IMG/VR virus record: IMGVR_UViG_3300031920_000007
Location: 1-23,374 of that record
Length of the DNA: 23,374 bases
Strand: one strand, 5' to 3'
DNA from: a virus
The position numbers were made by a program, and so were the translations under genes. Position 1 is the stretch's first letter; the number at the start of each line of letters is the position of its first letter. Under the pieces are notes generated by a model. That model saw only the letters and a list, made by a program, of their open reading frames with translations. It had not been told where the DNA came from and did no database searches. This document shows, one piece after another, positions 1 through 23,374 of the stretch.

Positions 1-45
1 TGAAACCTTTTAAAAATATAGTGTATAACTAGTATATAACAATTT
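1..45. repeat. Terminal direct repeat, copy 1 (identical to 23330..23374). Signature of a circular or circularly permuted assembly.
   Basis: Bases 1-45 (tgaaaccttttaaaaatatagtgtataactagtatataacaattt) match bases 23330-23374 exactly, compared base by base. Confidence 0.9.
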
Positions 46-654: not shown

Positions 655-1701
655 TTAGTTTTTTTGTACGATTTCTAAGAAGTTACCAGTTACAGAGAAA
701 CCATTTAGTTCTCCTGCTTTGATTTGATTCCAAGTTTCTTCGTTATTTATTTTGTAACTTACCATCCAGGTTCCCGATGGTACATCAAAACCTAATCCTG
801 TTGCTTTGTCCATCTTTGGATCATCAACAATCCAAGACTCAAGAAGAGTATTCTCATTAACAATGTTATCATCGTGGTTTATATCTGTATTGTGTGTGTT
901 GTTATCTTCTAAAAACTTCTTTGCAATCTTTTGTACTGTATCTTTAGAGAAGTATACGTGAAATGTATTACCTAATTCATCCTTTCTTGGTATCAAAGCT
1001 AAAGGAATCATACTTGGCCCGGTTACAATCATCTGATCATCAGTACTAAATGACCAATGTTTACTCATTAAGTATGCATTGTTACTAACACTACCATCTG
1101 GTGATGGTTCTGATGAGTTATTAGTTTTACCAGCATCACCCGCAGCTGGTCCTAAGCTAACTAATACATCTCGTGTACCATTATTAAATTTAACCATAGC
1201 TTCCCAGTAATGATTACAATTGTTTGCTCCTTTATATTTGAACACATCATATGAATTACTTCCTCTTGGTCCAAATCCAGGATTGAATCGATTCATTCTT
1301 GTAATATCTTCTCTAGAATATGATTTGTTTAGGGCTTTTAAAGTAGCACAGAATGTTCTTTGTCCCGCTGGACCTGCATATCTATATCTTAGTTCTGCTG
1401 GTGTTGATGGATCTAAACCTTCTAATGCATCTAATGCTCTTGCTCCTTGTAAGTAATCACCTACAGATGCAAACTCATCTAATTTACCATCTATATAGAT
1501 AACATCTTCTGGATTAATAGTCTCACCTACTTCTTGTGCTATCTTTAATACATGTTCTTGGAATTCATCTTGCTCTTCAGAGAATGCCATCCAATTTACT
1601 TCTATTGCTGGTTTATCAACGAGAGACATGATCTCTACTCCTAAGTCTTCGAATTCGAATTCTTCCATGTTGATTATAAGTTCTACTATCTTGTTCATCA
1701 T
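655..1701 (-). CDS. XkdF-like phage peptidase with an embedded MuF / SPP1 gp7-like head-morphogenesis segment.
   Basis: N-terminal SLVDKPAIE motif. The C-terminal ~140 aa (IVTGPSMIPLALIPRKDELGNTFHVYFSKDTVQKIAKKF...INHDD...ESWIV...GTWMVSYKI...WNQIKAGELNGFSVTG) resembles B. subtilis XkdF. The central RYRYAGPAGQRTFC...FKYKGANNCNHYW resembles the MuF C-terminal motif. Both comparisons are from memory. Confidence 0.6.
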   Translation of the reverse strand: MMNKIVELIINMEEFEFEDLGVEIMSLVDKPAIEVNWMAFSEEQDEFQEHVLKIAQEVGETINPEDVIYIDGKLDEFASVGDYLQGARALDALEGLDPSTPAELRYRYAGPAGQRTFCATLKALNKSYSREDITRMNRFNPGFGPRGSNSYDVFKYKGANNCNHYWEAMVKFNNGTRDVLVSLGPAAGDAGKTNNSSEPSPDGSVSNNAYLMSKHWSFSTDDQMIVTGPSMIPLALIPRKDELGNTFHVYFSKDTVQKIAKKFLEDNNTHNTDINHDDNIVNENTLLESWIVDDPKMDKATGLGFDVPSGTWMVSYKINNEETWNQIKAGELNGFSVTGNFLEIVQKN

Positions 1702-1711
1702 AAGTTATATA

Positions 1712-3517
1712 TTATAGTCTTGCTAAGTCGTTTATTTTTGCATCAGCTTCTTGTTGTGAACTTACTTCTGAAGAGACTACATATGCTCTTACTACTGGTG
1801 GTCCACTACTTCCAGTTTGTTCACCTAATGTTACTTGATTTTCTGCTGTATCTGCATTAGCTCCAGCTTGTAAAGCAGTTTCTGGATTAAATGCTGGTGC
1901 ACTAGGTACTGAGATGCTTGGAGCACCACCAGCTGATTTATTACCTGGTGTCTTAGTACTTATAATCTTTTTGATTGACATTAACCCAGATGCTACAGCA
2001 ACTCCTGCTGCGATAGGTGCAAGTACTGGTCCTGCAACTGGAATACCAACTACTGATTTATAGGCTGCATTCGCAGATTGATAAGTATCTATGGTTGTAG
2101 ATGCAATAGCTGCTGCTTTACCAACTGCTGTACCTTCTCCAACTAAAGATGAAATACTAGAAAGAATATCAGAACCTGCACTTAATGCATTCTGAACATC
2201 TTGTTCTTTCATTGCTTTGTTAAAGTCTGCTTCTTCTTTTGCTAGATCTTTAGATTTCTTAACATAACTAGCTTTGATTCTATTGATCTCTGCTTCAGTT
2301 GCTCCTGCTGCAGTTAACTTTGCTATGTCTAATTCTTCTTGTATTCTTAATTCTTCAGCAGCACGTACAAACATGTTATCAATAGCATCTAAATCTGCTT
2401 GTTGTAACATGTCATCGATCATCTGTCTGTTCGCAAGATATGCGGCATCTGCTGCGGCCTTCTCTGCGTCAGCTTTATCTTTAATCGCTTTCTTATCAGC
2501 TGCTAGTTTTTCTGCTGCTGCGAGTTCATCTGCATCTCTTTTCTCTTGATCTGCTTTCTTCTTTGCAGCTGCATCGTCATCAGCTTTATTACTCGCTAGT
2601 ATAATACCATCTCTAGAGTTTTTAAGCTTCATCAGCTGCTCCTCTGTCTCTTTGATAGTAGCATCACCTTCTGCTTTAACTTCTTCAGGATCAAATATCA
2701 TACCAGCAATACCACCAGTGAAATCATCTGCTAGATTGGTTGCTATGTCAATACCTGGAATGTATGAAAGTGCCTTAGTTAATGCATCAACAGTTGCTAA
2801 TAACATTGTAATAGGAAGAGTTAAGAATGCAATTACACCTTGTGCGATGTCTTTGTTTCTTTGAGCTGCAGCAACTTGAGCTTCTTTAGTCTTCTTCATT
2901 TGCTCTAACTGAGCAATGGTAGCTGCTATAACTTCATCAGTCTGCTGTATCTTAAGGTCTCTGATTTCTGCTTCAGATTTACCTTGTAGTCTAAGAGAGT
3001 TCTCTTGTGCTGATATAGCATCTAAGCCTTCTTGTTGTGTTTTAACATTTTCTTCTGCTAGTGCATTAACTTTCTTTTGTTCTGAACTAACTCCACTAAC
3101 TAAACCAACAATATCATCCCAATAGGCAACGATTAGACCAAGCGCTACGACTAATGCACCAATACCAGTTGATATTAGGGCTTTCTTTAATCCACTTGCT
3201 CCAGCTATACCTGATTTAAATGAAACCTTTAAGGCTTTACCCATTTTACCAACACCAGTAATAACATTCTTAAATCTACTAGCTAAACCACCAGTTGCTT
3301 CATCAAGTACTGAGATAGCACCTTCACCAGCTTCACCTGCATCTTTAGATTCTTTACCTAATTTATCAAAGTCATCAGCAGCACCATCAGCGGCATCACC
3401 AGCTTTCTTAGCTTGTGTCTCTAATTGTTGTAATGCAACTTTGGCATCATCTATATTTGTGACCGACTGTTCTAGACCGTCGATCTCAAAGGTTATTTTA
3501 ACTATCTTATCTGCCAT
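1712..3517 (-). CDS. Tape-measure-like protein. An internal or ejection protein is the alternative.
   Basis: 601 aa, Ala/Lys/Glu/Asp-rich with coiled-coil character. Hydrophobic segments include GIGALVVALGLIVAYW and VIAFLTLPITMLLATV. The C-terminal motif IPVAGPVLAPIAAGVAVASGLMSIKKI is typical of TMPs. Confidence 0.6.
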   Translation of the reverse strand: MADKIVKITFEIDGLEQSVTNIDDAKVALQQLETQAKKAGDAADGAADDFDKLGKESKDAGEAGEGAISVLDEATGGLASRFKNVITGVGKMGKALKVSFKSGIAGASGLKKALISTGIGALVVALGLIVAYWDDIVGLVSGVSSEQKKVNALAEENVKTQQEGLDAISAQENSLRLQGKSEAEIRDLKIQQTDEVIAATIAQLEQMKKTKEAQVAAAQRNKDIAQGVIAFLTLPITMLLATVDALTKALSYIPGIDIATNLADDFTGGIAGMIFDPEEVKAEGDATIKETEEQLMKLKNSRDGIILASNKADDDAAAKKKADQEKRDADELAAAEKLAADKKAIKDKADAEKAAADAAYLANRQMIDDMLQQADLDAIDNMFVRAAEELRIQEELDIAKLTAAGATEAEINRIKASYVKKSKDLAKEEADFNKAMKEQDVQNALSAGSDILSSISSLVGEGTAVGKAAAIASTTIDTYQSANAAYKSVVGIPVAGPVLAPIAAGVAVASGLMSIKKIISTKTPGNKSAGGAPSISVPSAPAFNPETALQAGANADTAENQVTLGEQTGSSGPPVVRAYVVSSEVSSQQEADAKINDLARL

Positions 3518-3519
3518 AC

Positions 3520-3533
3520 TATTAAATATAAAT
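3520..3533 (-). promoter_or_regulatory. Second copy of the conserved 14-mer, 2 nt upstream of the tape-measure-like gene's ATG.
   Basis: Exact match to 11036-11049. It contains TATATTTA, which resembles the Bacteroidetes -7 box TAnnTTTG. Confidence 0.3.
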
Positions 3534-3548
3534 TATTAGTCATTTGAA

Positions 3549-6500
3549 TTACTGTAAACAGTGTATTGAATCTTCACAACCATATGATTGATCTTCGTTA
3601 TGTAGAATCGCATCTGGTGTTCCACTATTTAATTGAATAATAGTTCCACAGTAAACTGCAAGACCACCATTTAATCTGAACTGTACTACGTCTCCAATTT
3701 GGAAATTAGATTGACCTCGTTCTAATGTCCAATTATGCATAGCTGGTATACATGATTCAATAACGTAAGTTAAAGGAGTTGGTGGATCAAGCGTACAATC
3801 CTTTGGACTAGTACATACATTATCTGATATGTAAATATTTGTATAAGCTTGACCTTGAGTCACTGTAACACTTCCAATTTCTGCACATATTGAAATTGTA
3901 TTACCACTACCAACTATCCAACCATATCCAGCTAAACCAAAGGTATAACTACCATAAGCATCTGCAAATCCAGTATTAGTAATAGTATGACATACTTGTG
4001 ATGGTGGTGGTGTTATACCTTGACAGTCATTACAGTCTGTATATTCAAAAGGTAATAAGAACTCTCCAGATGGTGTTTCTTGTGTACTAATTATTTGAAC
4101 ACATATACCTGCATAAGTCCCTGTTTCTATCTTGTATACTCCACCTACTGCTAATTGTGTAGTTGATTGAAAGTATGTTGGTGGAAAACTTTGAGTATCA
4201 CATGCAAATGCATAATAACCAAATGTAGTTGGCATAGCACATGTAGTACAGTCTGTGTGTAACTGATCATAGCACAAGTTCCCTAGTTCAACACTATCTT
4301 GTGCTATTACTGTATAACAAGGACCATAAATATCTGTATATGTGGTATCAGCTACTACCATACCAGGTACTAATTGACCACTAGGTGCAGCGTATCCACA
4401 GGAGCCTTGGTTTGTTGGATCAAGTGTAACATACCTAGTTGCATTAGGATGGTTAATAGGATCATAAGGTTGAGTACATGATTGCACTTTCCAACTAATA
4501 TATGTTGGTTGATCTGCTTCACATGTTGCACAATCTTGATAAGTGTTGTCAACAGTTGCGATAGCAGTGGTTGATTGTGTTACACCTAAGACAGTGTAAC
4601 ATGTTGCAATATTATTTAAACTTACTACATCATCTTCTTCTAAAGTTACAGTAGAAGACACTACAATGACTTGTCCACCACCACATTCTTCTACTTGATA
4701 ATATAGTAATCCATCATCACAATCTAGATTAACTGTGTATAAGTCTGACTCACATCCAAGAGAATCTATTACTCTATATTGATAACTACCTTCACATAAA
4801 TTATTTCTAGGGTTTGATGTATTACCATCAGTGTATGCAATAGTGTAAGGTCCAGTACCTCCTGCTTCTGTAATTGTGATAGAACCATTACAAGCTGCTT
4901 CGTCACCTGCACATATAGTAGGATCTACTAATACGCTAGTTGCTGTGACTAGTGTCGCTTGACTTTCTGGTACATCTACCTGTACTGTTGCAGTTCTACC
5001 AAGTGAATCAGTTACTATAAGTGTATCGATACCAACTGGTGCTGTAATAGTAAATGTAAATGGTGCAGTACCTGTTGGATTTGCAGTACCTTGTGCTCCA
5101 CTTACATCAAGTTCCCAAGTAAATCCTGGTGTACCTTCAGTAGTGATCTGTATACTACCATCTTCACCAATACAATTATCATTAAACACAGCGACAGAGA
5201 ATCCATTAAGAGGTTCGTCTAACCATATTGGTCTTTGATCATTAAGAGTAATCAATTGACATGTTACTACAGTTTCTGCACCTACTTGTGCATCTATAAT
5301 CTTTTCAGGTCTATAGTATTTACCATTAACAAAGATAACATCATCGAATGTAAGATCTTGTAGATCTACATTGTTTAAGATAAACTTAGCAGTTAGTCTT
5401 CTACTAAACTTGTTGTATATTGATGAGATGTAACGTGACCAGAATCCATCAAATAGAGTAGTACCTTGCTCAAAGTAACCTGTACCTGGTGAAGGGTTAA
5501 TATAATATCTAGTGTCGTTAGAGAAATTTAAGTTTAATGATGTCTGTTGTACTGGCCAATTCTCATAAGGACTAACTAGTGGATAGTTTGTTTGTAAGAC
5601 TGCATTACCACTATCATTATTTAGATACCATCTATGTTGATTAACTGTAATAGGTATCTTACCATTATAGAATAAGAATCTAGTTTTAGGTTTAAGAGGT
5701 AATTGTTCTGGTCTTGATGGATTCGAACTGGTCTGTTCACCTGTTACTTCTACAATACTTGGTATGATAAATGAAGGCTCTGGGTGGTTATTAGTAGTAT
5801 CTATGATTTGATCTATAGGTGTTGGCGCTATGCCTTTTACATCTATCTTACGAGTACCTTTAAGTAACTCATTAGTTGAATTAAACTGTAAGTAACCATA
5901 AGGGTGTTTGTTATTATCAAAGTGGAATTTATTAATGAAATCCTCATCTTGTGCAAAAGAGTATTCTATCGTAGCTGACTGTGTATTAAACAGAGGCTCT
6001 AAGACAGTGTCTTTATCCTCTACTAGTTTATGAGACCAGTCATAAGTTACACCACTACCAATGAACTCTTGCCATGGTTCTATGATAAAGTTATTAGGTC
6101 TTTTATTATCAGGTTGCATTACTAACCTAAACATAGTAAGGATATCTTTAACGTAGTCTATTTGTTTGTGTTCACAATCTAAATCTAATGGTGAGTAGTA
6201 GTCACCAGGTGCTGCTGTACAATCCCAATAAGTATTAGTTACTGTTGAGTAATCTATGTAGCCGCTTTGTGTATCACAAAAGACTTGTATAATATCTCCT
6301 GCTATTGGTTGATAACCACCGTTACGTGAATCCCAAGTAAGTGATGAGGTACTTCCATTACCTGCAGTATTACCTTGAGCCAGTGTCTGTAAGATAGTTC
6401 CACCTATTTGATTAACAACACATAGTCTTAAGAATACAGGCACTTGTACGTTAGGTCCTTGTGATTGTTCTACTTCTCCATTCATTTGTGCTGACGCTGA

Positions 6501-7523
6501 CATAATATAGAAGTTACCTCCTAGTGTGGCATCTGCTGTGACATTAAAGTAAGAACCTGTTGCGGGACTAGCTATTACGTAGTTATTAGCTATGTTAGTA
6601 GTAACTAAGTTATTATACATAAACTGATTAATATCATTACCACTTCCAAATTGGTTACTAGACTCAAAGTTAGTTCCAGTTACTTGATCTATTTCCATAC
6701 CAATAGACTCGTCGTTACCGAATGCACTAATATACATTTGGTGAAACCTATCTGAGTTTAAGAACTCAGACGAATAAGTATAACCAACATCTTCAAAGAT
6801 TTGATCTAAGACTCTCTTAGCTCTAATCATTGGCTTCATTCTCGTTTGAGACAATGAATGTTGAGACTTTGTAAATGATCTAACACCATTACCTGCTCCA
6901 CCTAAGGCTACTGTACCTTGCAGCGGATCTCCATCATCATAAGTATTACCATGATTTATAAGTGGCATAATGATATCGCCATCTGCAAAGCCTGCAGTTA
7001 TGTTTGCTGTCTGAGGAAATGCTAGCCAACTTTGTACTATGTTAGTATATGTAAACGGTCCTGTGAAGTCATCCGCATTAGTGTATACATTAGGTAGACC
7101 TTCCCAATCAAAGTCTGTCATTGTTAATTGACATAGAGTCTTCTCAGCAATTGTAGATGAAAAGTCTCTAGTCTCTCCTAAGAAGAGTAACTCATAGTCA
7201 GTTCTATCTAAGTCATCATTTCTAAATATCTTTTGTAGTCTGATGTGTCCCTCTCTAAATTCAGATCCATCTACTAAGATCTCTGCGTAGTTCTTTAAGG
7301 TAACATCAAAATCTATTCCATCTACTTCAAACACATTCTCAAAGAATTCATTGTTATGTCTAGTCGCTGGTACTCTAAACGTCTTAGAGAACACTGAAGT
7401 AGCATCTGCCTGTGTAATGTCTTCTATACTCAGAGTCAACTTAATTGGTTCAGTCTCGTATAGATCTAAGAAGAGTGATGTGTCACTATCTCCTTTTGTT
7501 TTGTAAACTTTAAGTTGTATCAT
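3549..7523 (-). CDS. Giant tail / receptor-binding protein. It has an N-terminal tail-protein body, two SprB-like repeats and five C-terminal cysteine-framed modules.
   Basis: 1324-aa ORF. Residues ~775-940 carry CxG.DGSI.I and GGTGPYT.....G.Y...V.D..GC patterns like SprB repeats. Residues 941-1324 form five Cys-framed modules, of which A-C end in DCxxC. Confidence 0.7.
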   Translation of the reverse strand: MIQLKVYKTKGDSDTSLFLDLYETEPIKLTLSIEDITQADATSVFSKTFRVPATRHNNEFFENVFEVDGIDFDVTLKNYAEILVDGSEFREGHIRLQKIFRNDDLDRTDYELLFLGETRDFSSTIAEKTLCQLTMTDFDWEGLPNVYTNADDFTGPFTYTNIVQSWLAFPQTANITAGFADGDIIMPLINHGNTYDDGDPLQGTVALGGAGNGVRSFTKSQHSLSQTRMKPMIRAKRVLDQIFEDVGYTYSSEFLNSDRFHQMYISAFGNDESIGMEIDQVTGTNFESSNQFGSGNDINQFMYNNLVTTNIANNYVIASPATGSYFNVTADATLGGNFYIMSASAQMNGEVEQSQGPNVQVPVFLRLCVVNQIGGTILQTLAQGNTAGNGSTSSLTWDSRNGGYQPIAGDIIQVFCDTQSGYIDYSTVTNTYWDCTAAPGDYYSPLDLDCEHKQIDYVKDILTMFRLVMQPDNKRPNNFIIEPWQEFIGSGVTYDWSHKLVEDKDTVLEPLFNTQSATIEYSFAQDEDFINKFHFDNNKHPYGYLQFNSTNELLKGTRKIDVKGIAPTPIDQIIDTTNNHPEPSFIIPSIVEVTGEQTSSNPSRPEQLPLKPKTRFLFYNGKIPITVNQHRWYLNNDSGNAVLQTNYPLVSPYENWPVQQTSLNLNFSNDTRYYINPSPGTGYFEQGTTLFDGFWSRYISSIYNKFSRRLTAKFILNNVDLQDLTFDDVIFVNGKYYRPEKIIDAQVGAETVVTCQLITLNDQRPIWLDEPLNGFSVAVFNDNCIGEDGSIQITTEGTPGFTWELDVSGAQGTANPTGTAPFTFTITAPVGIDTLIVTDSLGRTATVQVDVPESQATLVTATSVLVDPTICAGDEAACNGSITITEAGGTGPYTIAYTDGNTSNPRNNLCEGSYQYRVIDSLGCESDLYTVNLDCDDGLLYYQVEECGGGQVIVVSSTVTLEEDDVVSLNNIATCYTVLGVTQSTTAIATVDNTYQDCATCEADQPTYISWKVQSCTQPYDPINHPNATRYVTLDPTNQGSCGYAAPSGQLVPGMVVADTTYTDIYGPCYTVIAQDSVELGNLCYDQLHTDCTTCAMPTTFGYYAFACDTQSFPPTYFQSTTQLAVGGVYKIETGTYAGICVQIISTQETPSGEFLLPFEYTDCNDCQGITPPPSQVCHTITNTGFADAYGSYTFGLAGYGWIVGSGNTISICAEIGSVTVTQGQAYTNIYISDNVCTSPKDCTLDPPTPLTYVIESCIPAMHNWTLERGQSNFQIGDVVQFRLNGGLAVYCGTIIQLNSGTPDAILHNEDQSYGCEDSIHCLQ

Positions 7524-15977: not shown

Positions 15978-17333
15978 TTATGCTATTCTAATTCTCAATG
16001 CTCCAGCATTATGATAAACTTGACCTAAAGCTACTCCACCTGCAGCTGCTGCTGTATCGTCTGCGTAATTTAAATTTGCATAGTTTGCAATTTGTAGCAT
16101 ATTAACTGTAGCACATGCTTCAACTGTAGCTGTTACGTTCGCTCCTAATGCTACTGCATCTGTTACAGTAGTTTGAGCACCATTACCAATTGCTACGCCA
16201 CGATCATGAACGCTGCTTGTACCAGCTTTCGCTTCATATCCAATTGCAACAGATCTACCGTTACTAGCTCCGTGTACTTCAGATCCATGACCAATAGCTA
16301 CACCACCATTTGCATCTAATTTTTTAACACGACCAATACCAATCATGTCGTCTTGACCAACACTTGTTACGTGATCTTGACCATTACCAATAACTACACA
16401 GTCTGCACCGTATGTATGATTCCAGTCCTGACCCATGAAAATGCTACGTCCTTGACCACTGTTAATGATATTATCACCAATAGAAATAGAGTCTGCTACA
16501 TCATTCGTTAAATTATTACCAATAGCAATACAGTTGTCTGCTGATGATACGTTTGCGACAGTACCTAAACTATCTGCTGATTTAATTGAATTTGTCCCAG
16601 CGCTTCCTGCTACTAAACCGGCAGCTCCTCCGCCTCCACCACCAATAGCAGTACCGTCTAATGCTAATTCTGATGTATCTAATAATGTTACTAAACCTGC
16701 AGTTCCGTTTGGAGATAGTAATGTAATACCATTTCCGCCAGTTCCACCATCAGGTGCTACAATCTTTAATGCTCTAACGTGTGTTGTATCTGAAAGATCT
16801 GCTTCGACTTGACGTCCTAAAGCAACACCACCATTAACACCGAAAGGTACGTTAGTTTGTTGACCGAATGCAACTGAACCATCAGCTCCTGCTGATGCAG
16901 TACGTCCCCATGCTGATGCGTATATACCACCTGCAGATGCATACTCACCAATTGCAGCAGTACCTACTGAAGTAGATTCTGCAAAATTACCAATTGCAAT
17001 ACTTTGGTTGCTTGTCGCTTGAGCTCCGTTACCTAAAGCTATTGCTTGTGGTCCACTTGCAGTTGCATTGTTTGTTAGTAATGCATCTGCTGTCTTCATA
17101 GAGTCTGTTCCAGTACCTGATACTAAACCACCTGCTGCGATTCCAGTTACTGTAGCTGATGTAAAGTCTGCGTTACCTGTAAATTTAATTGTTGTTGTTG
17201 ATGCTTCTAATGGTAGTGCGTTTCCTACACCATCAGAGATCACTCTGTTTACGCCATTAATAGCTGCATTATCGAGAGTCTTTAAAAGCCCTTCATATGA
17301 TGTATTAATCGCGTTTCCTGTTAATGTTGCCAT
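15978..17333 (-). CDS. Tail fibre / spike with YadA-head-like Gly/Ala repeats.
   Basis: 451 aa. N-terminus MATLTGNAINTSYEGLLKT. Repeated S/V-AIG-x-x-A motifs (SIAIGNFAES, AAIGEYASA, SVAIGYEAKA, GVAIGNGAQT, AVALGANVTA). C-terminal YADDTAAAAGGVALGQVYHNAGALRIRIA resembles a recurrent phage fibre ending (from memory). Confidence 0.7.
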   Translation of the reverse strand: MATLTGNAINTSYEGLLKTLDNAAINGVNRVISDGVGNALPLEASTTTIKFTGNADFTSATVTGIAAGGLVSGTGTDSMKTADALLTNNATASGPQAIALGNGAQATSNQSIAIGNFAESTSVGTAAIGEYASAGGIYASAWGRTASAGADGSVAFGQQTNVPFGVNGGVALGRQVEADLSDTTHVRALKIVAPDGGTGGNGITLLSPNGTAGLVTLLDTSELALDGTAIGGGGGGAAGLVAGSAGTNSIKSADSLGTVANVSSADNCIAIGNNLTNDVADSISIGDNIINSGQGRSIFMGQDWNHTYGADCVVIGNGQDHVTSVGQDDMIGIGRVKKLDANGGVAIGHGSEVHGASNGRSVAIGYEAKAGTSSVHDRGVAIGNGAQTTVTDAVALGANVTATVEACATVNMLQIANYANLNYADDTAAAAGGVALGQVYHNAGALRIRIA

Positions 17334-18510: not shown

Positions 18511-19647
18511 TTATAATGATTCTATATTTGTTTGTGGTGCAGTATCAGTTACTTGTTCTTCGTTAACTAACTTGTTAGGTTTAATCTTAATACCTACATT
18601 GTAACCTGCTAATTTTAACATATAACCAAATCCACTAATAATCTTCTTTCTCTTAGGTGTAATTACTGTACCTTCAAAGTGTGCATAAGCAACTTTAATT
18701 TCATCTGAGTTATTAGAGAATCCTGAACTATCTTTAATACCTAATAATAGAGGTGATGTAATTCTATGTGCAGTTAAGATTCTACTAGAGATTCTTTCTT
18801 CTAATAACAAATAGTAGTCATCATTTGCACTATCAATAGGAGTAACTTGTAGTTCTTTTCCTGGTTCTGAGAATGCTAAGAAGAATCTACCTGCGTTTTC
18901 TGTTCCTGTAAATGTTCTTTCAATCTCTTGATAAACATCTCTTCTTTCTTCTGGTGTTGGTACGCCATTTCTAAACTGTACAAACATAGAAGGTGCTAAA
19001 CCATTTGCTATATTGTTAGCGTGAAATCTACTAACTTGTGCATCTAATGAAATATCATTCATTGCTGCTACATATCCTGGTAATGGATACACTTCGTTTC
19101 CTGGTGTGTAGTTATAGAAATAGAATATCTGAGAAGCATTGTCACCTTTATTATCAGTTGGATCAAATGCTTTATATGTGTTATAAGGATTCTTTCTAAG
19201 ATTAGCCCAATCAGATGAGAACATATACTCTTCAACTGTATCTTCTTCATTAGGTTTACCTGATCTTACATTACCAAATGGTAAGTGGTACATCTCTGAT
19301 ATCTTGGTTCTTTCTTTATTCCAGATTACATTAATAGCATAACCTTGATAGATTGTATAATCTAAAGAAATCTTTTCAAATATCTCATCAATTGTTTCGC
19401 CTTTTGAATTAATGTATTCGTCGCCGATGATTTCAATACCATCACCGATAATACCAGCTGTAATACTATCAATACAAGTATGGTGCATTGCAGAAGTGTC
19501 ATATAATTCTATTAATGATTGTGGGAATAGGTTTAAGCCGCCATAAAACATATAGTCTTTATTACGAACTTCTCTGATATCTGGCAATTCAATTGCTTGA
19601 AATTTAGAACCGTTGATTGCGTAGATTCCTTCGGGTGTACTTCTCAT
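18511..19647 (-). CDS. Portal protein.
   Basis: 378 aa. Portal-like segments: YPLPGYVAAMNDISLDAQVSRFHANNIANGLAPS, TFTGTENAGRFFLAF, ISSRILTAHRITSPLLLGI. Confidence 0.7.
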   Translation of the reverse strand: MRSTPEGIYAINGSKFQAIELPDIREVRNKDYMFYGGLNLFPQSLIELYDTSAMHHTCIDSITAGIIGDGIEIIGDEYINSKGETIDEIFEKISLDYTIYQGYAINVIWNKERTKISEMYHLPFGNVRSGKPNEEDTVEEYMFSSDWANLRKNPYNTYKAFDPTDNKGDNASQIFYFYNYTPGNEVYPLPGYVAAMNDISLDAQVSRFHANNIANGLAPSMFVQFRNGVPTPEERRDVYQEIERTFTGTENAGRFFLAFSEPGKELQVTPIDSANDDYYLLLEERISSRILTAHRITSPLLLGIKDSSGFSNNSDEIKVAYAHFEGTVITPKRKKIISGFGYMLKLAGYNVGIKIKPNKLVNEEQVTDTAPQTNIESL

Positions 19648-23328: not shown

Positions 23329-23358
23329 TTGAAACCTTTTAAAAATATAGTGTATAAC
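23329..23358 (+). promoter_or_regulatory. Promoter-like element P_a (TTGAAA-N18-TATAAC) upstream of ORF 58..204 across the circular junction.
   Basis: TTGAAA at 23329-23334, an 18-nt spacer, TATAAC at 23353-23358 (the second copy has TATAAC at 24-29). It is one of four copies of TGAAAC-N17-TATAAY in the window, and all four are intergenic. Confidence 0.45.
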
Positions 23359-23374
23359 TAGTATATAACAATTT
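23330..23374. repeat. Terminal direct repeat, copy 2.
   Basis: Exact 45/45 identity with 1..45. The unique genome length is therefore 23,329 bp. Confidence 0.9.

What the first reader, a model, noticed from the sequence alone, without database searches (positions are those of the whole stretch)
3552..4703. Five tandem cysteine-framed modules at the C-terminus of the 1324-aa tail protein
Residues 941-1324 split into five modules of 63-94 aa that share a cysteine framework.
- An N-terminal aromatic-x-h-x-x-C: YYQVEEC, ISWKVQSC, YYAFAC, TYVIESC.
- A central h-x-x-C-[YVA]-x-[VI]: ATCYTV, GPCYTV, GICVQI, SICAEI, VYCGTI.
- A terminal Y/H-x-D-C-x-x-C in modules A-C: YQDCATC, HTDCTTC, YTDCNDC. Modules D and E end in variants of it.
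- Intervening sequence is divergent.

I do not recognise this as a described domain. Its position is that expected for receptor-binding or glycan-binding tips, and the array could give multivalent or multi-specific binding.
Basis: seen in the sequence. Interest (0 to 1): 0.65.

Follow-up and report, generated by a model that had tools for sequence, protein, structure and literature searches.

The report
Undescribed four-cysteine modules on phage protein
The end of a very large protein of a small marine phage is a string of small four-cysteine modules from families no database describes, and related phages swap these modules like cassettes, which suggests they recognise the host.

Summary
Residues 938-1324 of the 1324-aa protein (nt 3552-4712, minus strand) form five small all-beta modules.

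- **Type I (A, B, C, E).** These four are homologous. Each has five strands and four near-invariant Cys, in the pattern Y-x-[VI]-x-x-C ... G-D-V-V ... G-x-C-[YW]-x-[VI] ... [YF]-x-D-C-x-x-C.
- **Type II (D).** This is a different six-strand four-Cys module. It is related to an alternative terminal module, F, found in relatives.

A type-I profile found 90 hits at E<=1e-3 among 1.84 billion representative proteins, about 84 of them genuine. That gave 511 unique module copies, 506 with all four Cys. Wherever context could be read, the proteins are phage proteins.

Pfam, NCBIfam and PDB sequences gave no match, and PHROGs had no family for the protein. Foldseek against PDB found nothing significant despite confident AlphaFold2 models (pLDDT 92-94).

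Relatives that are 88-90% identical in the N-terminal 735 aa carry replaced or highly diverged modules. That is cassette-like mosaicism.

My best reading is an exchangeable host-recognition end of a virion, probably tail, protein. Ligand binding, tail location and the Cys chemistry (zinc or disulfides) are not shown.

The parts
3549..7523 (-). Gene for the 1324-aa virion (probable tail or host-recognition) protein, stop codon included
   Evidence: ORF list and translation. The 146-aa gene one ORF upstream is HK97-gp10-like, and the next gene downstream is tape-measure-like.
5319..7523 (-). Conserved N-terminal body, aa 1-735
   Evidence: The aa 1-780 query has at least 435 homologues at E<=1e-5, about 50-90% identical among the 120 best listed. 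No Pfam, PHROG, NCBIfam or PDB match. Residues 12-147 are 33% identical to gp45 of Nonlabens phage P12024S.
4713..5183 (-). Two SprB-like repeats, S1 (aa 781-862) and S2 (aa 863-937). The zone where similarity to relatives starts to decay.
   Evidence: Pfam SprB PF13573 matches aa 871-902 at 19.3 bits, below the 28-bit cutoff. Many homologues carry a precomputed PF13573 hit. In a relative 90% identical in the N-terminus, identity falls to 74% in S1 and 49% in S2.
4515..4712 (-). Module A, type I, aa 938-1003. Cys 947, 975, 998, 1001.
   Evidence: A2 HMM hit at 67 bits. AlphaFold2 pLDDT 94, five strands plus a C-terminal helix that starts at the CxxC.
4233..4514 (-). Module B, type I with an insertion in the first half of the module, aa 1004-1097. 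Framework Cys 1016, 1069, 1092, 1095, plus extra Cys 1042 and 1084.
   Evidence: HMM hit at 74 bits. hhalign A-B E=4e-8. The insertion is absent from P0003 and P0004. In the relatives inspected, the two extra Cys occur together in insertion variants or not at all.
4017..4232 (-). Module C, type I, aa 1098-1169. Cys 1108, 1141, 1164, 1167.
   Evidence: HMM hit at 82 bits. Same strand pattern in AlphaFold2.
3789..4016 (-). Module D, type II, aa 1170-1245. Cys 1178, 1213, 1237, 1243.
   Evidence: Not matched by the type-I profile. Six predicted strands and no CxxC helix, pLDDT above 90. Present in 105 of the proteins fetched here. Related to the alternative terminal module F.
3552..3788 (-). Module E, type I with Cx5C instead of CxxC, aa 1246-1324, at the C-terminus. 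Cys 1258, 1292, 1316, 1322.
   Evidence: HMM hit at 84 bits. Aligns with A, B and C on all four Cys. Five strands in AlphaFold2. Replaced by the F module in about half of the relatives.

Best explanation
The last 387 residues are a beads-on-a-string array of small, independently folding all-beta modules. Each is locked by four invariant cysteines.

The architecture is two SprB-like repeats, then type I, type I, type I, type II, type I. Type I is a five-strand small beta-barrel of about 65-95 aa. Its Cys lie after strand 1, in strand 4, and as a CxxC at the start of a short terminal helix.

I propose that the array is the distal, exchangeable host-recognition part of a large virion protein, probably of the tail. 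The phage has a complete genome of about 23.3 kb and probably infects marine Flavobacteriaceae. The conserved N-terminal 735 aa would anchor the protein in the virion. The modules would be swapped between related phages by recombination to change or broaden what the phage sticks to, most plausibly cell-surface glycans or proteins.

**Shown:** module homology, fold confidence, Cys invariance, phage-restricted distribution, absence from the domain and structure libraries searched, and module-wise mosaicism.

**Inferred:** virion or tail location, ligand binding, and whether the four Cys hold a metal (Zn is the leading guess) or form two disulfides.
For: **Modules and fold.**
- Module homology and four invariant Cys columns.
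- 511 unique type-I copies, 506 with all four Cys. C3-C4 spacing is 2 in 467 copies, 5 in 38 and 4 in 2.
- AlphaFold2: module A pLDDT 94, pTM 0.78. Whole array pLDDT 91.8, pTM 0.52, meaning well-folded beads with uncertain mutual orientation.

**Family and distribution.**
- 90 hits at E<=1e-3, 27 at E<=1e-10, among 1.84 billion representatives.
- One to five confidently detected copies per protein, often joined by Pro/Thr-rich linkers.

**Mosaicism.**
- P0116: N-terminus 90% identical, but A and E have no match, B is 33% and C is 75%.
- P0117-P0119: N-terminus 87-88%, but B, C and E have no match.
- P0005: N-terminus only 51%, but A is 73%.
- P0173: N-terminus 60%, C 83%. P0140: N-terminus 74%, E 82%.
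- About half of the relatives end in E and about half in F.

**Context.**
- The 146-aa gene one ORF upstream is HK97-gp10-like, and the gene immediately downstream is tape-measure-like.
- P12024S gp45 shares the N-terminus and is annotated with BACON.
- In L004 a type-I-module protein lies after the tape-measure and tail genes and just before holin and amidase.
- Other carriers match phage-only PHROGs.
- BFVD neighbours are all from uncultured tailed phages, with TM up to 0.82.
Against: - No ligand, lectin or CBM similarity was found by sequence or structure.
- The protein's place in the virion is not established. It has no PHROG, Pfam or PDB relative.
- Its gene lies upstream of the tape-measure-like gene. 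That is not the canonical siphovirus order of tape measure, Dit, Tal and receptor-binding protein.
- Mosaicism also occurs in decoration proteins, so it is not specific to receptor binding.
- The genome encodes another fibre-like protein with YadA-head repeats. That protein could be the primary receptor binder.
Confidence: 0.6

Rival explanations
1. Structural stalk. The four-Cys modules are rigid, protease- and oxidation-resistant spacers that only extend the protein. Only the terminal module (E or F), or another protein, touches the receptor.
For: pTM 0.52 with per-module pLDDT above 90 fits a beads-on-a-string stalk. The terminal position alternates between two unrelated module types, E and F. 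The invariant residues are core and Cys positions, which suggests stability rather than a conserved binding site.
Against: Internal modules A, B and C are exchanged as freely as the terminal one. Pure spacers would be expected to drift, not to be replaced by distant variants. Module number varies from one to five among proteins.
Confidence: 0.2
2. Decoration or environmental adhesion. The array works like Ig-like phage decoration domains, giving weak adherence to mucus, particles or algal polysaccharide rather than specific receptor recognition. The protein may not be in the tail.
For: The array sits next to Ig-like SprB-type repeats. Pro/Thr-rich linkers appear in other carriers. The gene order is atypical and the tail location is unproven.
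Against: At 17% of a 23.3-kb genome, the gene is a large investment for an accessory function. In the relatives with a readable C-terminus, almost all retain the array.
Confidence: 0.12
3. Redox or catalytic CxxC modules, thioredoxin-like or iron-sulfur-carrying, with an enzymatic role at infection.
For: A near-invariant CxxC sits at a helix N-terminus. From my own knowledge, iron-sulfur clusters held by four Cys are known in phage tail-tip proteins such as lambda gpL.
Against: There is no thioredoxin fold: the module is all-beta and about 65 aa. About 8% of copies have Cx4C or Cx5C. Three to five tandem copies per protein is not an enzyme-like arrangement.
Confidence: 0.03
4. Chance or compositional artefact. 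The cysteine pattern does not reflect real domains.
For: Modules share only 18-34% identity with module A, and there is no DNA-level repeat between them.
Against: hhalign E down to 4e-8. 90 database hits at E<=1e-3. 506 of 511 copies keep all four Cys. AlphaFold2 pLDDT 92-94.
Confidence: 0.01

Closest known systems
Modular C-terminal receptor-binding regions of tailed-phage tail fibres and evolved Dit/Tal proteins that carry carbohydrate-binding modules (own knowledge)
   Same: A conserved N-terminal anchoring part is followed by a variable C-terminal part built of small beta domains. Domains are exchanged between related phages. Copy number varies.
   Different: The domains here match no known CBM, lectin, Ig or knob family by sequence or fold. 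Each carries an invariant four-Cys framework, which is unusual for phage receptor-binding domains. The tail location is not shown.
SprB repeat (Pfam PF13573) of Bacteroidota gliding-motility adhesins
   Same: SprB-like repeats lie immediately upstream in the same protein (aa 781-937). The probable host is also in Bacteroidota.
   Different: The four-Cys modules do not match PF13573. The predicted topology and the Cys pattern differ.
BACON domain (PF13004) of P12024S gp45, the only cultured-phage homologue of the N-terminal region
   Same: It occupies the part downstream of the shared N-terminal domain in a syntenic gene. It is a putative glycan-binding module.
   Different: There is no sequence similarity between BACON and the modules: Pfam gave no hit.
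Structural Zn(Cys)4 sites of the treble-clef or zinc-ribbon type, for example the Cys-rich region of PriA (own knowledge; weak Foldseek neighbours)
   Same: Four invariant Cys, two of them as a CxxC at the N-terminus of a helix. PriA chains recur among the weak structural neighbours, with TM about 0.5 and rmsd 2.7-4.5 A over 54-67 columns. A BFVD neighbour is named 'Primosomal protein N'.
   Different: Only one CxxC knuckle is present. The other two Cys come singly, one after strand 1 and one from strand 4. All these matches have E>1. Metal binding is untested.
Small beta-barrel domains (SH3-like or OB-like)
   Same: Five short strands in about 65 aa, with a G-D-V-V-type strand motif. The weak neighbours are small barrels: EutN, the ATP-synthase N-terminal barrel and the Gfh1 C-terminal domain.
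   Different: No significant Foldseek or HMM match to any of them. The Cys framework is not a feature of those folds.

Membership tests
SprB repeat (PF13573) | Match to the Pfam model at or above its gathering score | tested here: not met
   The only hit is aa 871-902 at 19.3 bits, below the 28-bit cutoff, and it lies upstream of the modules. Modules A-E give no hit even at E<=10.
Any curated domain family (Pfam-A, NCBIfam, PHROGs) | Significant profile match over the module region | tested here: not met
   No family for aa 938-1324 in Pfam, PHROGs or NCBIfam. Ten other module-bearing proteins gave no Pfam hit on the modules.
Any fold with a solved structure | Foldseek E<=0.001 or a sequence-profile hit to a PDB chain | tested here: not met
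   Best Foldseek E is 1.3 for the single module and 0.2 for the array, with TM at most 0.53. PDB profile searches returned nothing. AlphaFold DB and HHpred were not available.
Zinc ribbon or treble-clef Zn(Cys)4 domain | Two CxxC-type knuckles, or one knuckle plus a helix N-terminus, supplying four ligands | tested here: not met
   There is one CxxC, at the helix start. The other two Cys are isolated, after strand 1 and in strand 4.
Zinc ribbon or treble-clef Zn(Cys)4 domain | Four S-gamma atoms in tetrahedral geometry around a metal | not testable with these tools
   Model coordinates are not returned by structure prediction, and there is no metal assay.
Disulfide-stabilised extracellular module | Cys lost or gained in pairs; S-S distances of about 2 A | tested here: inconclusive
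   The framework Cys are almost never lost (506 of 511), so pairing cannot be read. The two extra Cys of module-B insertion variants co-occur, which looks pair-like. However, 22 copies carry a single odd extra Cys.
Phage receptor-binding or tail-fibre distal region | C-terminal region that varies and is exchanged among phages with a conserved N-terminal anchor | tested here: met
   N-terminal identity does not predict module identity, and the terminal module alternates between E and F.
Phage receptor-binding or tail-fibre distal region | Protein located at the tail tip or baseplate and binding a host receptor | not testable with these tools
   Only neighbourhood evidence is available: a gp10-like gene one ORF upstream and a tape-measure-like gene immediately downstream. 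The gene order is atypical.
DGR-diversified target (C-type-lectin-fold variable region) | Reverse transcriptase nearby, and a TR/VR repeat pair with the VR at the C-terminus | tested here: not met
   No RT domain among the window ORFs scanned. No long direct repeat in nt 3400-5300. For contrast, L004 has a real DGR, but it targets a neighbouring protein.

The most novel reading that the evidence does not exclude
Type I and type II are two new metal- or disulfide-locked lectin-like folds, in effect new carbohydrate-binding module families. Marine Bacteroidota phages would combine them as interchangeable cassettes to build multivalent, multi-specific adhesins. The four-Cys lock would be an adaptation that lets very small binding domains survive in seawater.
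Probability: 0.3. Interest if true: 0.7.

Novelty: new variant of a known kind. Interest (0 to 1): 0.55.

Why it matters
- **Scale.** These are two previously unannotated small domain families, with at least 511 unique type-I copies in the proteins fetched here.
- **Where they sit.** They occupy the variable end of a protein present in hundreds of uncultured marine phage genomes. They are probably host-range determinants of phages that infect Flavobacteriaceae, key degraders of algal bloom carbon.
- **Annotation.** Defining the families would give annotation to many 'hypothetical' phage proteins.
- **Structure.** It would provide a compact, confidently predicted fold with no neighbour among solved structures.
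- **A testable system.** Phages with near-identical bodies but different module sets are a natural experiment in how host range is rewired.

Tried and rejected
- **First homologue search misled.** The C-terminal query returned only four proteins, which at first suggested extreme rarity. The N-terminal search and HMM scans showed this was a sensitivity artefact of the word-index search. About 100 full-length relatives carry the array.
- **Negative library searches.** Pfam at E<=10 on each module, PDB profile searches, NCBIfam and Foldseek against PDB for one module and for the array all found nothing significant.
- **Genome scan with the module alignment failed.** The search for related loci found no stretch conserved enough to search with. 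The single-protein scan worked.
- **Recent duplication or DGR origin rejected.** There are no DNA-level repeats in the region.
- **Profile rebuild failed.** Rebuilding a wider type-I HMM from the hmmalign output gave an over-long model. I went back to the A2 profile.
- **Disulfide pairing could not be read.** The framework Cys are almost never lost.
- **Literature.** Searches for P12024S and for cysteine-rich flavobacterial phage tail proteins found nothing relevant.

Full report
**1. What is at the coordinates**

The window is a phage genome. Its first 45 nt equal its last 45 nt, so it is a circular assembly of about 23.3 kb and is probably complete.

ORF 3549..7523 on the minus strand encodes 1324 aa, and aa 941-1324 map to nt 3552-4703 as stated. 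Cysteine is strongly enriched: 22 of 34 Cys fall in the last 384 residues.

**2. Are the modules real?**

I cut the region into A (938-1003), B (1004-1097), C (1098-1169), D (1170-1245) and E (1246-1324), using an alignment with four metagenomic homologues.

- Profile-profile comparison gave A-B E=4e-8, B-C E=6e-4 and A-C E=3e-3, with the A-C alignment covering the full length. D and E were not significant at that depth.
- MAFFT aligned A, B, C and E from five proteins with exactly four invariant columns, all Cys.
- A profile of that alignment, searched against 1.84 billion representative proteins, found 90 proteins at E<=1e-3, 27 at E<=1e-10 and 5 at E<=1e-30. Six are repetitive false positives, which leaves about 84.
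Of these, 506 have all four Cys. The C3-C4 spacing is 2 in 467 copies, 5 in 38 and 4 in 2.
- The consensus is Y-x-[VI]-x-x-C ... L-x-x-G-D-V-V ... G-x-C-[YW]-x-[VI] ... [YF]-x-D-C-x-x-C, with the Gly before D-V-V at 89%.

**3. Fold**

AlphaFold2 on module A, with the 17-row module alignment, gave pLDDT 94 and pTM 0.78. The model has five strands and a short C-terminal helix that begins at the CxxC.

AlphaFold2 on aa 938-1324, with 78 homologues, gave mean pLDDT 91.8 and pTM 0.52. That means well-folded beads whose mutual arrangement is uncertain.

- A, B and C repeat the five-strand-plus-helix pattern.
- E has five strands and no helix, which is consistent with its Cx5C.
- D has six strands and a different layout.

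Consistent with this, D has no profile similarity to type I (E=0.09). It is related to an alternative terminal module, F, found in relatives (hhalign 88%, E=2.8e-6).

**4. Is it a known domain?**

No, as far as the libraries available here can tell.

- Pfam-A gave nothing on the modules at E<=10. It gave nothing on the modules of ten other carriers.
- NCBIfam gave nothing, and PHROGs has no family for the protein.
- PDB sequence and profile searches returned nothing.
- Foldseek against PDB had a best E of 1.3 for one module and 0.2 for the array, with TM at most 0.53. The neighbours are generic small barrels, and weak PriA Cys-rich-region hits recur.
- In BFVD the neighbours are uncharacterised proteins of uncultured tailed phages, with best E=7.5e-4 and TM up to 0.82 at 20-26% identity. 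These are probably family members.
- Source names are only 'hypothetical protein'.

**5. Homologues and mosaicism**

The first C-terminal search returned only four proteins. That was a sensitivity artefact of the word-index search.

The N-terminal 780 aa have at least 435 homologues, mostly 1280-1330 aa and from marine metagenomes. About 100 full-length relatives carry two SprB-like repeats followed by two to four type-I modules and a D module. They end either in E or in F, in roughly equal numbers.

Identity of each window segment to each relative shows module-wise exchange:

| Relative | N-terminal identity | Modules |
|---|---|---|
| P0116 | 90% | A and E no match, B 33%, C 75%, D 50% |
| P0117-P0119 | 87-88% | B, C and E no match |
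| P0122 | 84% | A 35%, B 84%, E 81% |
| P0005 | 51% | A 73% |
| P0173 | 60% | C 83% |

Similarity begins to decay inside the SprB-like repeats. There is no DNA-level repeat between modules and no DGR signature in the region.

**6. Context**

In transcription order the neighbouring genes are:

1. terminase large subunit
2. two unassigned ORFs
3. an HK97-gp10-like protein
4. a 488-aa protein
5. this gene
6. a tape-measure-like 601-aa protein (PHROG E=1e-17)
7. an XkdF-type protease

The same order is seen in a TARA contig.

Residues 12-147 resemble gp45 of the siphovirus Nonlabens phage P12024S, whose record notes a BACON domain. Two contigs of about 24 kb carrying 78-81% identical homologues are binned in a Flavobacteriaceae MAG. 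That suggests the host clade.

Type-I modules also occur in unrelated phage proteins.

- Some have Pro/Thr-rich linkers.
- Some are fused to phage-only PHROGs.
- In L004, one such protein lies after the tape-measure and tail genes and directly before holin and amidase.

**7. Mechanism**

The best-supported reading is an exchangeable host-recognition array. A conserved N-terminal body would be anchored in the virion. The distal string of compact four-Cys modules would be reshuffled among relatives.

Binding itself, the tail location and the ligand are inferred. The gene order is not canonical, because this gene lies upstream of the tape-measure-like gene. A second fibre-like protein with YadA-head repeats is also encoded.

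**8. Cys chemistry is unresolved**

*Pointing to a structural Zn(Cys)4 site*
- The Cys are near-invariant.
- The CxxC sits at a helix N-terminus.
- From general knowledge, phage virions assemble in the reducing cytoplasm.
- PriA Cys-rich-region neighbours recur, though weakly.
- 22 copies carry a single odd extra Cys.

*Pointing to disulfides*
- The two extra Cys of module-B insertion variants always occur together.
- The particle lives in an oxidising extracellular environment.

I could not inspect model coordinates. My rough split is Zn about 50%, disulfides about 40% and other about 10%.

**9. Verdict**

- The modules define two domain families that no library searched here describes.
- The biological kind, a modular and mosaic C-terminal end of a phage host-recognition protein, is known.
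- I rate this a new variant of a known kind, of moderate to good interest.

Noticed in passing
window 1-45 and 23330-23374: The first 45 nt are identical to the last 45 nt. The contig is therefore a circular assembly and probably a complete phage genome of about 23.3 kb. The 1324-aa gene takes about 17% of it.
   Followed up: partly
window 15978-17333 (-): A 451-aa protein with YadA-head repeats (Pfam PF05658, E=7.9e-8; NCBIfam Ata-like). It is a second fibre or adhesin-like protein in the same small genome and could be the primary receptor binder.
   Followed up: no
L007 and L008 (contigs CAJIZF010000008.1 and CAJIZF010000005.1): Two contigs of about 24 kb encode 78-81% identical homologues and are binned in a Flavobacteriaceae MAG (FRAM18_bin221). 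They are probably phage genomes binned with their host, which hints at the host clade.
   Followed up: partly
L004 8077-8187, 8260-8370 and 8478-9431: An unrelated phage that carries a type-I-module protein (P0110) has a diversity-generating retroelement. A 111-nt repeat pair, 78% identical, lies next to a reverse transcriptase gene, with one copy in the C-terminus of a 1235-aa protein. The module protein itself is not the target.
   Followed up: partly
L001 4593-8447: In a TARA contig the homologous gene is split into 621-aa and 640-aa ORFs, with the break upstream of the SprB-like repeats. This could be an assembly frameshift or a genuine two-gene version.
   Followed up: no
window 4233-4514 (-), module B, Cys 1042 and Cys 1084: Module B variants with the insertion carry two additional Cys that occur together, and both are absent from variants without the insertion. 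This hints at an extra disulfide stapling the insertion.
   Followed up: partly
window 655-1701 (-) and 18511-19647 (-): The XkdF-type protease domain is the C-terminal part of a 348-aa protein whose N-terminal part matches a portal PHROG. The portal gene itself lies about 6 kb from the terminase gene, with HNH and replication-like genes between them. This is an unusual layout for a small tailed phage.
   Followed up: no
proteins P0051, P0075, P0015 and P0037: The type-II/F four-Cys module also occurs alongside type-I modules in unrelated proteins with Pro/Thr-rich linkers. The two module families seem to travel together beyond this phage lineage.
   Followed up: partly
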